A stretch of 64,000 nucleotides of DNA from the human T2T-CHM13v2.0 reference genome, Homo sapiens (GCF_009914755.1 NC_060927.1); one strand, 5' to 3'. Positions 7,139 through 17,649 are shown, counted from the stretch's first letter. Numbers and translations are program-made. The notes: generated by a model from the sequence alone, not told the origin.

Positions 7139-7264
7139 AATTGGAAGCCCTAACTTCGCAGGCAAGCATATTTTGCATGAATTGGCAGGTTACAAATGAA
7201 CATAAGAAGACAGCATCTGTCAAGTCCCTTAGGAAACCAGGCAGAACCAAATGTAATTCCTTAC
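7139..7264 (-). other. Candidate internal exon (126 nt; 171 nt with alternative donor at 7094) of an unidentified minus-strand gene, beginning with GTAAGG
   Basis: Acceptor tgtgttatgtgtttatgtttttcag (CAG 7267-7265); donors ATT|GTAAGT (7138) and GTG|GTAAGA (7093); non-repeat sequence; one fully open frame in phase with the upstream exon. Confidence 0.65.
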
Positions 7265-10200
7265 CTGAAAAACATAAACACATAACACACATTAAAATTC
7301 AATAGGCAAATTTTATGCCTTTCTTAGTAATTTAAGACATATGTTTAATCAATTATTTCTTTTTCTCATTGCAAGGTGCCTACGGCAAGTGGATATTGAA
7401 TTCTCTTTTGTTTTTCCCCCCTTGAGGTAGAGTCTCGCTCTGTGGCCCAGGCTGGAGTACAATGGCACAATCTTGGCTCACTGCAACCTCAGACTCCCAG
7501 GCTCATGCAGTCCTCCCACTTTGGCCTCCCAGTAGCTGGGATTACACGTGTGCACTATCATGCCCAGCTAATTTTTTGTATTTTTTATAGAGACAGGGAT
7601 TTGCCATGTTGCCCAGGCTGGTCTCGAACTCCTGGCCTAAAGTGATCTACCCACCTCAGCTTCCCAAAGTGCTGGGATTGCAGGCATGAGCCACTGCACC
7701 TGGCCAGATACTGAATTCTTTTCTTTTTTTAGATGGAGTCTTGCTCTGTCACCCAGGCTGCAGTACAGTGGCACAATCTCAGCTCACTGCAACCTCTGCC
7801 TCCCAGGTTCAAGCGATTCTCCTTCCTCAGCCTCCCAACTAGCTGGGACTACAGGCACCTGCCACCACGCCTGGCTAATTTTTGTATTTTTAGTAGAGAC
7901 AGGGTTTTAATATGTTGGCCAGGCTGGTCTCAAACTCCTGACCTTGTGATCTGCCTGCCTTGGCCTTCCAAAGTGCTGGGATTACAGGTGTGAGCCACCA
8001 CGTCCAGCCCTGAATTCTTAATTCAATGCATATTTTTCCCTGATTCAAGACTAATTTGATGTAAATGTTTCTATATAGGATGATAAATTCTCCTATATAG
8101 GATGATAAATGTTCCTGATGCAAGTATATGGAGTCACTATATCAAACATAACTCAGAAATAACTATATCATTGACAGTATAATTAGTCATTTCCAGGACA
8201 TAACAATCACATAATCAAATGGACCCTAAAGTCCTACTTGACATCTCATCCAACCCCTGAATTCACCCGTCCTCTTCTTGGGTATCTATCCATTCACTCG
8301 GCACATCTAGTGAGCACAAACTACCCTTGCTGATGACATGGAGGGGAAAAGCATGATTCCAGCCATCAAGGGCATTAAAATATAATATAGAAATAAACTA
8401 TATTCAAGCCTCTTCCCTCTTCACTGGTGAATATCTGGAAAATAATTATATTACTTTGTACTGCTTCTGCCTAGTCAATCACTGACTCAGTAAGTATATT
8501 CAGAGCATTTCTCTGGGCTAGGAATACATAATACAGCAGCAAACAGAGCCCCATCTCTGGCCTTGGGGAACTTACAGTCTAGTAGCAAATACACATATTT
8601 TAGTACAAGCACATGTAATGGGAAGGCCAAACAGGGTGATCTAGTCTGGGCTAATGGAAGACGCCTTGATGAGGCACATTTAGAGTGAGATCTAAGCCAG
8701 GCGTGGTGGCCAATGTCTGACATTCCAGCTATTCAGGAGGCTGAGGCAGGACGAATGTGTGAGGCCAGGAAGTCAAAGCCAGCCTGAGCAACAAAGTAAG
8801 ACCGTGTCTCAGTCACCTAAAGGATGAATAAGAGTTAAAGGAAAGCATCATTTAGGTGTATGAAAGTGGTTCTCAAACTGTGTTTAGGGGACCCTCTGAG
8901 GAGTCTTAACACTTTTTCAGGAGATACATAAGCTCAAAACCATTACTTAATCATGCAAAGATGTACATGCCCTTTTCACTCTCATCTTACAGTTATGTTT
9001 TCCAGAGGCTACAGGCCTGAAGGCAGAAGCAGCAATGAGAACCCAGCTGCCCTACATTAAACCAGACTGCCCAGAGATGGCCAAACATCTAACAAAATTC
9101 CACTCTTCTCACTAAATATTTAGTTCTAGAAACTATTTCTTTAAAAAATATTACTTATGTTAATACATAATAGGGATATTATTGTAATTTTTTTAAATGA
9201 ATTAATACACATTTGTAATTTCTCAATTTCCATTTCTAAAAAGGTAAATATGCAGGGAATAAAAGCTCTTTGGTGTCCTCGAGTATATTTAAGAGTCCAG
9301 AGGGGTGAACTGTGGACTTCAGTTGAGTGATGTGTTGATATAGATTCATCAATGGTAACAAATGTCCCACAATAATGCAAGATGTTAAGAAGAGAAACTG
9401 CGGGAGAGGAGGAGAAGGCGTCCATGGAGACTCTACTTTCTGCGCCATCTTCCTGCTAAACCTAAAACTGCTCTAAAAAATAAGGTCTATTTAAGGGGGA
9501 AAAAAAGAGTCTAAAAGAATGTCAAGACCAAAAAGTTTGAGAACCACTGGCCTACAGAAAGGCAGAAGCAAAGCCAGCGGGCGAGGCAGGGGTGGTGGGC
9601 AGAGAAGCCAGTGAGCCAAATGCTGGGAAACCAAGACTCGGGGTGCCAGTAATTAGGACCAGAATGTGGCTCTAAACACAGTTTTTAAAAAGATATTGCT
9701 TCACAGCATTCCTGCCAGAAACAGGACTCCTCCTCTCTCCGAAACTGATGATAGCTAAGAGGGACAAGGAAAACCTAAGAGTCTCAGAGGCAGTCAGGCT
9801 CCAAGCATGGGCCAGGGTGCTCCTTAGTAGCCAAATTTAGACATGAAGATTTTTCAAGTTTGCTCTTATTTTATTCCTAAAGGAATTAAGGTGTAGTTGT
9901 TATTTTAATATCTATTAGGTAACAAAAACTGCCCTCAAAGAGTTGCTGAGAACAGTGACATTAAGCAGGCCCCATGCCCACTTTCTTGTGTGTCAAGTAG
10001 AACACTAAAACTGTGAGCCACAGGAATATTCTGATTCTCAAGTTCAAGTCTTTTGGGGATGATTAATGCAAAGCCCAGGGTAGGATATGGGCCTTTAGAT
10101 GTTCTGGCTCTGCTCTAAGTTAAGATTTTCTAAAACTGAGCAGGAACCCCCAGAGAGTCCAGAATAGAAGGAAAGTTATGTATCTATTCAAAGGATAAGA

Positions 10201-16200: not shown

Positions 16201-17649
16201 ATGTATTTCATGATTCACTTTCTGATGTTGAGCCTGCCTTTTTATCACTGCCACTTTCAAAGGCAATGTCTTAAGGAAAATAGTTTCGTGTACACTGGGT
16301 TTTCCCCTTAAAGGCAGTGCTAGTTTTAGGCAGCTAAAAGAACCAAAGCTTTGGAGAAGGCCCACTGGGTTTTCAAATAGTTTATTCTCACTATTTCAAA
16401 CCAAATATGCCAAGTTACAAATGAACATATGGCAACATCTTAGCCAACCAGTTTGGATTACTGTCCAAATCGGAGACTAAATCTTGGAGATTAAACTTAA
16501 TTTGGAGTAAGTATCAGCTAGTTTTCTATGTTTAAAAGGAAGTTATCTTTCATACAAAGAGAGGTGAGGAAGGGGCTGGCCAATTAAATAACTGTTACAC
16601 CACAAATAGTATATTTATTTATTTATTATTTTTTAAATTTTTTTTTTTTTGAGATGGAATCTCACTCTGTCACCAAGGCTGGAGTGCAGTGGTGTGATCT
16701 TGGCTCACTGCAACCTCCATGTCCTGGGTTCCAGCAATTCTCCTATCTCCCTAGTAGCTGGGATTACAGGCGCGTGCCACGAGGCCCAGCTAATTTTTGT
16801 ACTTTTAGTAGAGATAGGGTTTTACCATGTTGGCCAGGCTGGTCTCAAACTGCTGACCTCAGGTGATCTGCCCGCCCCAGCCTCCCAAAGTGCTGGGATT
16901 ACAGGTGTGAGCCACCGCGCTCGGCCACAAATAGTACATTTGCATTATATCAGCTAATGTTTACAATTCACCCAAGGAGGTAGTTATTTCTGACAATCAA
17001 AGAGAAAAAGCTTAGAAAGCTTAAGTCATTCAGACATGTTCAGGGTCATATCTGATATGATCCAACCCATACTCTTTGCTCTATACCTTTGGTCTCTGAT
17101 ATCAGAATATTCACTCAAGCATGTGAAAGTGTATCTGAATTAAAAATCACTATTTTGTATAGAGTACTTCGGGGGCAAGGGAACAGTGGGGGTGGTAATT
17201 AGAATTCATTTCTTCTAGACAGTCTGTGATAGGATTCAGCATCAAGTGGTAGGAATTTACACATAGGCATATAAAATGAATAAGTCTTCTAAGAAAATGT
17301 AAATGAGACCCAAGGTTACAACTATATATGTTTATGGCCTTCAGGAAGGTTAGCATAATGCTGTAGTATTTTCTCATGTGAATAATGAAACTAACTTACC
17401 CACAATTGAGTAAGCCTAAAAAAAATTCAGGCAACAGCTATTCTGCAAAGTTACCATTATTATTAAAATAAAATCTTATTAACCTCATGCCAACTCATTT
17501 CAGATAGTTCTAATTTAAGAAAACTGTTACCCTGCAGGCAACCTTATGCATTATCATGCTGCAATATAAACACTGAATAATCTAAACCTAGATAAATCAA
17601 AATCTGTCATTTCTGATCACTTACATTTCAAATTCATAGTCTTAACCAT
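7139..17649 (-). CDS. Hypothetical spliced ORF (join 17649-17625, 7264-7139), at least 50 aa; uORF or protein N-terminus
   Basis: ATG GTT AAG ACT ATG AAT TTG AAA T|GT AAG GAA TTA... open through the 126-nt exon; no homolog recognised. Confidence 0.3.
7405..7705 (-). mobile_element. Alu (AluJ-like)
   Basis: Full dimer; TSD gata(t/c)tgaattct at 7392-7404 and 7707-7719. Confidence 0.93.
7720..8009 (-). mobile_element. Alu (AluS)
   Basis: Full dimer; TSD ctgaattctt at 7711-7720 and 8010-8019. Confidence 0.93.
8092..8101. promoter_or_regulatory. Perfect CArG box (CCTATATAGG)
   Basis: Matches CC(A/T)6GG; motif only, no functional evidence. Confidence 0.3.
8480..8695 (-). mobile_element. L2 fragment
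   Basis: gtatattcagagcatttctctgggctaggaatac...ggaacttacagtctagt. Confidence 0.55.
8696..8812 (+). mobile_element. Alu monomer (FLAM-like)
   Basis: gccaggcgtggtgg...ggaggctgaggcagga...ccagcctgagcaacaaagtaagacc. Confidence 0.8.
8864..9549 (+). mobile_element. hAT-Charlie DNA transposon (MER119-like), interrupted by L1
   Basis: Terminal inverted repeats agtggttctcaaact...agtttgagaaccactg; internal ttttccagaggctaca. Confidence 0.75.
9306..9504 (+). mobile_element. L1MC-like 3' end nested in MER119-like element
   Basis: tgaactgtggactt...aaacctaaaactgctctaaaaaataaggtctatt; flanked by aagagtc(c/t)a repeats. Confidence 0.8.
10265..10720 (-). mobile_element. L2 fragment
   Basis: tacttattaaacacctactgtgtgcc...ggatgctatggg... 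Confidence 0.5.
11041..11407 (+). mobile_element. L1PB-like 3' end, 5'-truncated
   Basis: attctaagtgaagtgactcaggaatggaaaaccaaacat...gggtgcaccaaaatctcagaaatcaccacta; poly-A 11388-11407. Confidence 0.9.
12290..12465. mobile_element. MER5-like hAT MITE
   Basis: cagaagttctccaaag...ttttttacaagttcccc...tgaaagttgaaagccac. Confidence 0.55.
12645..12810 (+). mobile_element. MIR SINE
   Basis: ggcaagtgattcaacttctctgaacctgtttcctcatctttaaaatgggga. Confidence 0.75.
13617..13920 (-). mobile_element. Alu (AluJ-like)
   Basis: Dimer with ctcactgcagccttgacttcccaggctcaag. Confidence 0.92.
13925..14105 (+). mobile_element. MIR SINE
   Basis: aggtaagtaacttagcctctctaag...tgtgaggaataaataaaataatgcatgggaaagtgct. 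Confidence 0.65.
14315..14751 (+). mobile_element. Solo ERV1 LTR (MER31-like)
   Basis: TG...CA ends; acaaagactctctacttgatcaaactttagtc; repeated agcaa(a)gaatcct; TATA-like ctataaat. Confidence 0.75.
15020..15500 (-). mobile_element. MIR SINE split by an Alu
   Basis: attatctccattttattggtaaagaaactaag|Alu|ccatgttatgtagctggcaagtg...ctcaaccccagg. Confidence 0.65.
15134..15394 (+). mobile_element. Alu (AluS), 5'-truncated, short deletion near 3' end
   Basis: TSD aaaag(c/t)aatctgt. Confidence 0.92.
16614..16926 (-). mobile_element. Alu (AluS)
   Basis: Full dimer; TSD acaaatagta(t/c)attt. Confidence 0.95.

What the first reader, a model, noticed from the sequence alone, without database searches (positions are those of the whole stretch)
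7139..17649. Hidden spliced ORF of at least 50 aa across a 10.4-kb intron
Seen: the 262-nt exon has no ATG for 237 nt, then two in-frame ATGs (17649, gaaATGG; 17637, actATGA) just after an in-frame TAA. It ends in phase 1, and the only stop-free frame of the 126-nt exon is the matching one. Product: [50 protein letters not shown], with four Cys and a hydrophobic core. I do not recognise the protein. Inference: a uORF microprotein or an alternative N-terminus whose 42-codon module is toggled in frame by the RS-type exon.
Basis: partly seen in the sequence, partly recalled or inferred. Interest (0 to 1): 0.75.

Follow-up and report, generated by a model that had tools for sequence, protein, structure and literature searches.

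The report
Chance ORF through known MAGI1 recursive exon
The second "exon" is the already published recursive-splicing exon in the first intron of MAGI1, the first is an unsupported exon look-alike, and the reading frame joining them stops at 50 codons, so this is most likely not a hidden protein.

Summary
What those facts mean is different.

- **The 126-nt piece (7139-7264, minus)** is the published, RT-PCR-validated recursive splice (RS) site and RS exon of MAGI1 intron 1. The published primers match it exactly and give the reported 136-bp product.
- **The frame closes.** MAGI1 exon 1 also ends in phase 1. The RS exon ends in T and exon 2 starts GA, so a TGA forms at the junction. The ORF is exactly 50 codons. 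It is 52 if the donor is read through and 8 if the RS exon is skipped. This refutes both the "alternative N-terminus" and the "in-frame 42-codon module".
- **The 262-nt piece (17625-17886)** is unannotated. It is one of 16 comparable exon look-alikes on that strand of the window.
- **Chance explains the ORF.** An open 126-nt frame occurs at 10.5% of positions, and an ATG path into a phase-1 donor at 26%.
- **Conservation looks non-coding.** Other mammals conserve the RS exon, but the conservation runs on into the intron, and 10 of 15 relatives have a shifted exon end.

No Pfam, PDB or small-protein match was found. This is ordinary, known biology.

The parts
7139..7264 (-). Published MAGI1 intron-1 RS exon (126 nt). 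The recursive splice site is the CAG|GTAAGG at 7265/7264.
   Evidence: Sequence. The primers MAGI1-RS-F1 and RS-R1 of PMC6110456 table S6 map to exon bases 1-12 and 103-122 and give the reported 136-bp product. The paper's tables S1-S3 place the RS site at hg19 chr3:65731263, with 3' splice-site score 10.77, PhastCons 1, junction reads and a sawtooth signal.
7265..7292 (-). Pyrimidine-rich 3' splice-site region of the RS site. Its in-frame ATGs at 7292 and 7283 open a contiguous 53-codon genomic ORF that runs through the RS exon.
   Evidence: (open frame of 55 aa). The same stretch is conserved as ...CLCFSG in P0001, P0003, P0004, P0007 and P0008.
7133..7138 (-). GTAAGT donor that ends the RS exon. 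If it is read through, the frame stops at TAA (7131-7133) after two more codons.
   Evidence: The donor motif is kept in other mammals, read as IVS or (N/S)CK.
17625..17886 (-). Putative 262-nt upstream exon. It is an unannotated exon look-alike with stops in all three frames.
   Evidence: It is one of 16 comparable look-alikes on this strand and single copy in the genome. Its longest frame found no relative. Placed after MAGI1 exon 1 it reads G-I-H-stop.
17647..17649 (-). Proposed start codon (gaaATGG). A second in-frame ATG lies at 17635-17637.
7265..17624 (-). Proposed 10,360-nt intron between the two pieces.
   Evidence: Coordinates. No evidence that it is removed as a unit.
43003..44619 (-). 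First exon of the RefSeq lncRNA model LOC107986018. This is the only annotated transcript that splices into the RS acceptor at 7264.
   Evidence: Hub annotation. The exon ends CAT|GTAAGT, and no ATG leads into the open RS-exon frame. The donor it rebuilds, CAT|GTAAGG, is weak.

Best explanation
The 126-nt piece is the known recursive-splicing (RS) exon of MAGI1 intron 1.

How it normally works:
- MAGI1 exon 1 is spliced to the CAG|GTAAGG at 7264. This rebuilds a donor, AAG|GTAAGG, whose first nine bases equal exon 1's own donor.

What the other piece is:
- The 262-nt piece is most likely one of many intronic exon look-alikes.
- The 50-codon ORF is 8 chance codons from that piece plus the one open frame of the RS exon.

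What would happen if a transcript did join 17625 to 7264 (inferred):
- The rebuilt donor would be the weak AAT|GTAAGG.
- The RS exon's own donor would win and the RS exon would be kept.
- The frame would then end in a TGA written across the RS-exon/exon-2 junction, 115 nt ahead of the next exon junction.
- That is a decay-prone by-product of the RS splicing switch. It is neither a protein gene nor a new MAGI1 N-terminus.
For: Identity of the RS exon (shown):
- The published junction primer is the last 14 nt of exon 1 plus the first 12 nt of the 126-nt piece. The reverse primer ends at base 122, and the amplicon comes to 136 bp as reported.
- Supplement rows give the site, MaxEnt 10.77, PhastCons 1, junction reads from 120 min to steady state, and sawtooth fold changes of 2.4-4.1.
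- Recursive splicing of Magi1 is also reported in mouse ES cells and, as an 'RS-like cryptic exon' absent from mature mRNA, in mouse brain.

Frames (shown):
- The exon 1 coding part is 313 nt, so it ends in phase 1.
- Exon 1 + RS exon + exon 2 reads ...RASN then stop.
- ATG(17649) + RS exon + exon 2 gives 50 codons then stop.
- ATG(17649) + exon 2 gives 8 codons then stop.
- Exon 1 + the 262-nt piece stops at the fourth codon.
- Exon 2 is 117 nt.

Donor competition (computed), as duplex energy with the U1 5' end:
- Exon 1|RS: -10.0.
- RS exon's own donor: -7.0.
- 262-nt piece|RS: -4.8.
- lncRNA exon|RS: -4.9.
- The published model says RS-exon inclusion is decided by this competition. It also says 68% of RS exons introduce a premature stop.

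Conservation looks non-coding:
- Among 7 non-human sequences, translated identity is 77% in the exon part and 67% in the 24 codons after its donor.
- 10 of 15 relatives read RAS/RTS-(I/V)-V-S, one base fewer than human before GTAAGT. A frame switch was shown by tblastn for P0001, P0002 and P0003. For the other seven it is inferred from alignment.
- P0007 carries an internally shifted stretch, and P0008 leaves the frame early.

No family, structure, paralogue or small-protein match was found.
Against: - The 262-nt piece has textbook signals: a CTAAC branch-like motif, 15 of 17 pyrimidines, CAG|G, and GTAAGT. It also sits in a 309-nt ATG-free run with a good Kozak context at 17649. I could not look at any RNA-seq, CAGE, Ribo-seq or GENCODE data, so low-level use is not excluded.
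- The RS-exon frame is open in all 15 related sequences found. This is biased, because only open frames become predicted proteins, and one search listed only proteins of 73 aa or more.
- The exon part is somewhat better conserved than its flanks: 77% against 67% among non-human sequences, and 72-82% against about 45-56% when compared with human.
- A Cricetulus gene model (P0005) joins an upstream coding exon to the RS exon. Its N-terminus has its best match in the whole window on the 5' edge of the 262-nt piece. The match is weak: E 0.077 against 0.39 for the next four.
Confidence: 0.8

Rival explanations
1. The 262-nt piece is a real, low-abundance cryptic (poison) exon of MAGI1 or of an intronic transcript. 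Because it ends in T, it cannot rebuild a strong donor at the RS site. It therefore forces RS-exon inclusion and a junctional stop. That would be a working example of the RS 'binary switch', but a non-coding one.
For: - Its splice motifs are strong.
- The rebuilt donor AAT|GTAAGG scores -4.8, against -7.0 for the RS exon's own donor.
- The only annotated transcript entering the RS acceptor from inside the intron (LOC107986018, whose first exon ends CAT) is likewise modelled without use of the rebuilt donor (hub table).
- The link between cryptic upstream exons or promoters and RS-exon inclusion is my recollection of Sibley et al. 2015, which I could not read.
Against: - It has no annotation.
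- It is 1 of 16 similar look-alikes on the strand, and the opposite strand has as many.
- No cross-species hit was found for its longest frame.
- In the weak hamster alignment, the six codons that cover its pyrimidine tract and acceptor fall in a gap.
Confidence: 0.13
2. A 50-aa cysteine-rich, hydrophobic microprotein is translated from ATG 17649 in a transcript that starts at or near the 262-nt piece. Its stop codon is assembled at the junction with MAGI1 exon 2.
For: - The ATG has a good Kozak context and is the first ATG after a 309-nt ATG-free run.
- The RS-exon frame is open in every relative found.
- With the junctional TGA the ORF is complete.
Against: - There is no evidence for the transcript.
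- The ORF's properties sit at chance level.
- The exon end differs by one base in 10 of 15 relatives, and conservation continues into the intron.
- No Pfam, PDB, paralogue or small-protein match exists.
- The stop lies 115 nt upstream of an exon junction, so by the 50-nt rule quoted the mRNA should be degraded.
Confidence: 0.04
3. The open RS-exon frame is kept by selection because occasional inclusion after exon 1 makes a truncated MAGI1 product: 104 exon-1 residues, the Gly of the junction codon, and a 41-residue hydrophobic tail.
For: - The RS exon's single open frame is exactly MAGI1's own phase.
- Predicted proteins of this architecture exist in sequence libraries. P0006 and P0015 are exon 1 + RS exon + read-through, and P0015 is named a predicted MAGI1-like isoform.
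Against: - An open frame in a named phase has a 10.5% chance.
- The mouse Magi1 cryptic exon and human RS exons in general are reported absent or rare in mature mRNA.
- The product would come from an NMD-eligible mRNA.
- The library models read through the donor into the intron, so they look like annotated splicing intermediates.
Confidence: 0.03

Closest known systems
MAGI1 intron-1 recursive splice site. Sources: PMC6110456, PLoS Genet 2018 (passages and supplements read). Sibley et al. 2015 is credited with a MAGI1 RS site by PMC5809388 and by bioRxiv 10.1101/2024.12.11.627982 (passages read). Sibley itself was not seen.
   Same: It is the same locus. The published junction and reverse primers lie in 7264-7143, and the site coordinate, amplicon size and strand all agree.
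   Different: - The supplement files that text-search could reach do not list this RS exon's 3' end, reading frame or junctional stop (MAGI1 occurs only in files 1, 2, 3 and 6). Those details were worked out here.
- PMC6110456 calls the site 'novel'. Whether it is the same as Sibley's MAGI1 site I could not check.
Mouse Magi1 'RS-like cryptic exon' (PMC8797253, PLoS One 2022; passages read).
   Same: - It is a cryptic exon in the Magi1 intron with upstream and downstream splicing intermediates.
- It is not included in mature mRNA.
- Its rebuilt donor is much stronger than its downstream donor. My U1 energies here show the same order, -10.0 against -7.0.
   Different: Orthology with 7139-7264 is inferred, not shown. 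The coordinates are in PDF supplements that I could not open.
[quoted passage not shown] 2018; passages read).
   Same: It is a cryptic RS exon that is normally removed through a strong rebuilt donor. It is retained in a rare isoform, and inclusion is set by donor competition.
   Different: For MAGI1 no retaining isoform is documented in anything I read. The 262-nt upstream exon proposed here is hypothetical.
Poison (NMD-switch) cassette exons.
   Same: Inclusion brings a premature stop more than 50 nt upstream of a later exon junction.
   Different: The stop is not inside the exon. It is assembled from the exon's last base and the first two bases of exon 2. The exon's main role is as a stepping stone for intron removal, not as a regulated cassette.

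Membership tests
Vertebrate recursive splice site with RS exon | Juxtaposed 3' and 5' splice motifs (YAG|GTAAG) deep in a long intron | tested here: met
   The site is TTTTTCAG|GTAAGG at 7265/7264. It lies 292,756 nt below exon 1 in this assembly.
Vertebrate recursive splice site with RS exon | Junction of the upstream exon with the RS site seen in RNA | tested here: met
   RT-PCR, Sanger sequencing and junction reads are published. I verified that the primers map to this site and give 136 bp. I did not see the RNA data themselves.
Vertebrate recursive splice site with RS exon | Sawtooth read density across the intron | not testable with these tools
   Reported in PMC6110456 (fold changes 2.4-4.1) and in mouse ES cells.
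Vertebrate recursive splice site with RS exon | A downstream donor that defines an RS exon | tested here: inconclusive
   GTAAGT lies at 7138-7133, and the motif is kept in other mammals. Its actual use in human was not seen in any source I could read.
Vertebrate recursive splice site with RS exon | Rebuilt donor stronger than the RS exon's own donor | tested here: met
   U1 duplex energies are -10.0 against -7.0 kcal/mol. The U1 5' end was typed from recall.
Vertebrate recursive splice site with RS exon | Evolutionary conservation of the site | tested here: met
   PhastCons is 1 in table S1. Fifteen related predicted proteins carry the G-K (GGT AAG) junction where they cover it.
Translated small ORF (microprotein or uORF) | A mature transcript that contains the whole ORF | not testable with these tools
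   RefSeq has no 262-nt exon (hub table). No expression data were available.
Translated small ORF (microprotein or uORF) | Frame, length and start conserved as coding sequence | tested here: not met
   - The exon end is shifted by one base in 10 of 15 relatives.
- P0007 has an internal shift.
- P0008 leaves the frame.
- Conservation continues past the donor, 77% against 67%.
- Nothing was found for the part that carries the ATG.
- Only protein-level data were used, so dN/dS was not computable.
Translated small ORF (microprotein or uORF) | Ribosome footprints or peptides | not testable with these tools
   No such data were available.
Translated small ORF (microprotein or uORF) | Relatives among known proteins or domains | tested here: not met
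   - Pfam gave 0 families and PDB 0 chains.
- The own genome gave only the self hit.
- Among proteins of 22-72 aa there was no candidate.
Alternative N-terminus or in-frame insert of MAGI1 | The frame continues from the RS exon into MAGI1 exon 2 | tested here: not met
   The T at 7139 plus the GA that starts exon 2 gives TGA. Skipping the RS exon also gives TGA.

The most novel reading that the evidence does not exclude
The RS exon's frame is kept open in MAGI1's own phase across mammals, and the stop arises only at or just after the junction with exon 2. On this reading, occasional inclusion yields a defined short product instead of noise. After exon 1 that product is a 146-aa N-terminal MAGI1 fragment with a hydrophobic Cys-rich tail. 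After a cryptic upstream exon such as 17625-17886 it is the 50-aa peptide. The RS exon would then be both a splicing stepping stone and a coding module.
Probability: 0.05. Interest if true: 0.55.

Novelty: already known. Interest (0 to 1): 0.15.

Why it matters
**Main value: it clears a false lead.** An apparently "hidden" spliced ORF inside MAGI1 turns out to be a known recursive-splicing exon joined on paper to an unsupported exon look-alike.

**Two small points I did not find in the passages and supplements I could read:**
- The MAGI1 RS exon is open in MAGI1's own frame. Its premature stop is assembled across the junction with exon 2.
- Any upstream exon ending in T rebuilds only a weak donor at the RS site. 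This holds for the 262-nt piece and for the first exon of lncRNA LOC107986018. It predicts RS-exon retention in exactly those transcripts.

The second point is a directly testable case of the published donor-competition model.

Tried and rejected
- **Sibley et al. 2015** (PMC4471124) is not held. Its content is cited only through other papers or marked as recalled.
- **Literature searches.** 'RS-exon' + 'MAGI1' found 0 papers. 'MAGI1' + 'cryptic exon' found only the two RS papers already in hand. I found nothing in print on a 262-nt exon or on this ORF in those searches.
- **Repeat origin.** Both pieces hit only themselves in the genome, so a repeat origin is rejected.
- **Paralogous RS peptide in MAGI2 or MAGI3.** None was found. 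Only exon 2 of those genes matched the hamster model.
- **Conservation probe for the 262-nt piece.** Its longest frame (17766-17912) gave no candidate. This is weak evidence, because it needs an open frame in other species.
- **Hamster model P0005 as support for an alternative N-terminus.** Rejected, for three reasons:
  - Its 'extra exon' is only an upstream extension of exon 2.
  - It reads on into intron 2.
  - Its N-terminal match to 17927-17832 is marginal.
- **The exon implied at hg19 65703149-65705806** by table S1 introns. I found an AG at the predicted acceptor but no GT at the predicted donor, so I left the mapping unresolved and did not use it.
- **Splice scoring.** No MaxEnt-type scoring was possible. 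I used pyrimidine counts, consensus matches and U1 duplex energies instead.

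
Full report
**1. The observation**

On the minus strand, 17886..17625 (262 nt) lies between ...CTAACTCTTTATTTTTTTCTCAG| and |GTAAGT. Its only ATGs are at 17649 (gaaATGG) and 17637. An in-frame TAA lies two codons before the first ATG, and the stretch ends in phase 1.

The second stretch, 7264..7139 (126 nt), starts GTAAGG directly after TTTTTCAG and ends before GTAAGT. Only its third frame is open. The sequence facts are therefore correct. What is not shown is that the first stretch is an exon, or that the two are ever joined.

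**2. What the 126-nt piece is**

Recursive splicing (RS) of the MAGI1 first intron is in print.
- PMC6110456 (passages; supplements) validated an RS site in that intron by RT-PCR and Sanger sequencing, with a 136-bp product.
- Its junction primer is 14 nt of exon 1 followed by the first 12 nt of the 126-nt piece. Its reverse primer ends at base 122 of that piece. 14 + 122 = 136.
- Tables S1-S3 list the site at hg19 chr3:65731263, 123,500 nt from exon 2 and 292,407 nt from exon 1. They give a 3' splice-site score of 10.77, PhastCons 1 on the AGGT, junction reads from 120 min to steady state, and sawtooth fold changes of 2.4-4.1.
- In this assembly the site is 292,756 nt from the end of exon 1.
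- Magi1 recursive splicing is also reported in mouse ES cells (PMC5809388). In mouse brain it appears as an 'RS-like cryptic exon' that has both splicing intermediates but is absent from mature mRNA (PMC8797253).

**3. Where the frame goes**

I fetched MAGI1 exons 1 and 2 from the same assembly, using the paper's exon primers as patterns.
- The coding part of exon 1 is 313 nt, so exon 1 also ends in phase 1. The RS exon's single open frame is MAGI1's own frame.
- The RS exon ends in T and exon 2 (117 nt) begins GA. Inclusion after exon 1 reads ...RASN then TGA.
- If the RS exon is skipped, the 262-nt piece, which also ends in T, gives TGA after 8 codons.
- If the RS exon's donor is read through, as in the RefSeq lncRNA model, the frame stops after two more codons.
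- The 262-nt piece placed after exon 1 stops at the fourth codon.

Both the 'alternative N-terminus' and the 'in-frame 42-codon module' are therefore refuted. The junctional stop lies 115 nt before the next exon junction. By the rule quoted in PMC6110456, that makes the mRNA a target for nonsense-mediated decay. The same paper reports that 68% of RS exons behave this way.

**4. Chance**

- Within this window, 10.5% of 126-nt stretches are open in a named frame.
- 26% of positions have an ATG-started path into a phase-1 donor. That includes 4 of the 14 GTAAGT donors upstream of the RS site.
- ATG-free runs of 237 nt or more are 17 of 1209 gaps on this strand.
- A crude rule finds 16 exon look-alikes on each strand, the 262-nt piece among them. 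The rule requires at least 13 of 17 pyrimidines, YAG, no AG just upstream, a donor matching at least 7 of 9 consensus positions, and a length of 50-300 nt.
- The peptide's hydrophobicity lies within the top 15-20% of random open frames, and four or more Cys occur in 8% of them.

Nothing here rises above what an intron of this composition gives by chance.

**5. Relatives**

- Both pieces are single copy in the genome.
- The RS-exon peptide has no paralogue, Pfam family or PDB relative.
- A full scan of 1.84 billion representative proteins gave 8 hits at 71-82% identity.
- The word-indexed library gave 12 proteins among those of 73 aa or longer, and none among those of 22-72 aa.
- That makes 15 distinct proteins in all.

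Most come from unnamed metagenome contigs and are contiguous ORFs. They start in the pyrimidine tract (...CLCFSG-K...), run through the RS exon, and continue past its donor into the intron.

Three are spliced models.
- P0006 and P0015 are exon 1 + RS exon + read-through. P0015 is named a predicted MAGI1-like isoform.
- P0005 is a Cricetulus 'MAGI1 isoform 3' model. Its extra segment is only an upstream extension of exon 2.

**6. Is the conservation coding?**

- Among seven non-human sequences, translated identity is 77% over the exon part and 67% over the next 24 codons, which are intron (P0002 and P0003 were dropped because their frames part from the others downstream; with them the figures are 77% and 58%).
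- Against human, further blocks are conserved in other frames down to about 6845.
- Ten of 15 sequences read RAS/RTS-(I/V)-V-S where human reads RASN-C-K. That is one base fewer before GTAAGT. A frame switch was shown by tblastn for P0001-P0003. For the other seven it is inferred from the alignment.
- In those species the exon would be 125 nt and end in phase 0. Exon 2 would then read E-E-G-stop. This last step is inferred using human exon 2.
- P0007 has an internal stretch that matches another human frame, and P0008 leaves the frame after ...FVTCQ.

This is the pattern of a conserved splicing element, not of a protein. Two limits apply. Only open frames enter such libraries, and without nucleotide alignments I could not measure synonymous against non-synonymous change.

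**7. The 262-nt piece**

- Its longest frame found no relative.
- The N-terminus of the hamster model P0005 has its best match in the whole window on the 5' edge of this piece (17927-17832; 37.5% over 32 columns; E 0.077 against 0.39 for the next four). A six-codon gap lies over the pyrimidine tract and acceptor.
- This hints that the region is alignable in rodents. It is too weak to show a conserved exon.

**8. Mechanism**

The published model holds that the rebuilt donor at the RS site competes with the RS exon's own donor. The U1 duplex energies I computed are:
- -10.0 for exon 1|RS (AAG|GTAAGG, whose first nine bases equal exon 1's own donor);
- -7.0 for the RS exon's own donor;
- -4.8 after the 262-nt piece;
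- -4.9 after the lncRNA's first exon.

Shown: the canonical path favours removal of the RS exon. Inferred: any transcript that enters the RS acceptor from an exon ending in T should keep the RS exon and meet the junctional stop. This fits what I recall of Sibley et al. 2015 on cryptic promoters and exons, but that paper was not readable here.

**9. Verdict**

The feature is a known recursive splice site. The 'hidden ORF' is most likely a chance frame of exactly 50 codons, and its upstream half rests on an unsupported exon look-alike. A real microprotein is not excluded, but I put it at about 4%.

Noticed in passing
window 7134-7292 (-): A contiguous, unspliced 53-codon ORF starts at ATGs inside the pyrimidine tract of the RS acceptor and runs through the RS exon. 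The same arrangement, extended to about 78 codons past the donor, recurs in predicted proteins from other genomes (P0001, P0009, P0010, P0012-P0014).
   Followed up: partly
window 6845-6886 (-): About 250-290 nt below the RS exon's donor, a translated block (...RHKAFWFPVYNI) is 79% identical to part of P0004 and is also recognisable in P0003. It suggests a second conserved intronic element downstream of the RS exon.
   Followed up: no
window ~13147, ~57507 and ~1664 (-): Table S1 of PMC6110456 lists three more putative conserved AGGT sites of MAGI1 intron 1 that fall in this window. They are hg19 65737143 (PhastCons 0.98), 65781507 and 65725662. AGGT motifs occur within 1-3 nt of the converted positions.
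   Followed up: partly
window 28875-29115 (-), 55149 (-), 18432 (-): The exon look-alike at 29115-28875 ends in a perfect CAG|GTAAGT. That same AG|GTAAGT (28874), together with 55149 and 18432, belongs to the seven further AGGTRAG motifs on the MAGI1 strand. None is known to me as an RS site.
   Followed up: no
outside the window: about -18193 to -20850 (hg19 65703149-65705806): The intron list in table S1 of PMC6110456 implies an annotated alternative MAGI1 transcript. It would have an intron spanning this whole window (hg19 65705806-65888271) and an exon of about 2.6 kb just below the window, close to where the RefSeq lncRNA LOC107986018 ends. The donor end did not map cleanly to this assembly.
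   Followed up: partly
window 43003-44619 (-): The first exon of LOC107986018 ends CAT|GTAAGT and splices into the RS acceptor at 7264. The region around its start is AT-rich (GC 31%, 2 CpG in 700 nt), so it does not look like a CpG-island promoter.
   Followed up: partly
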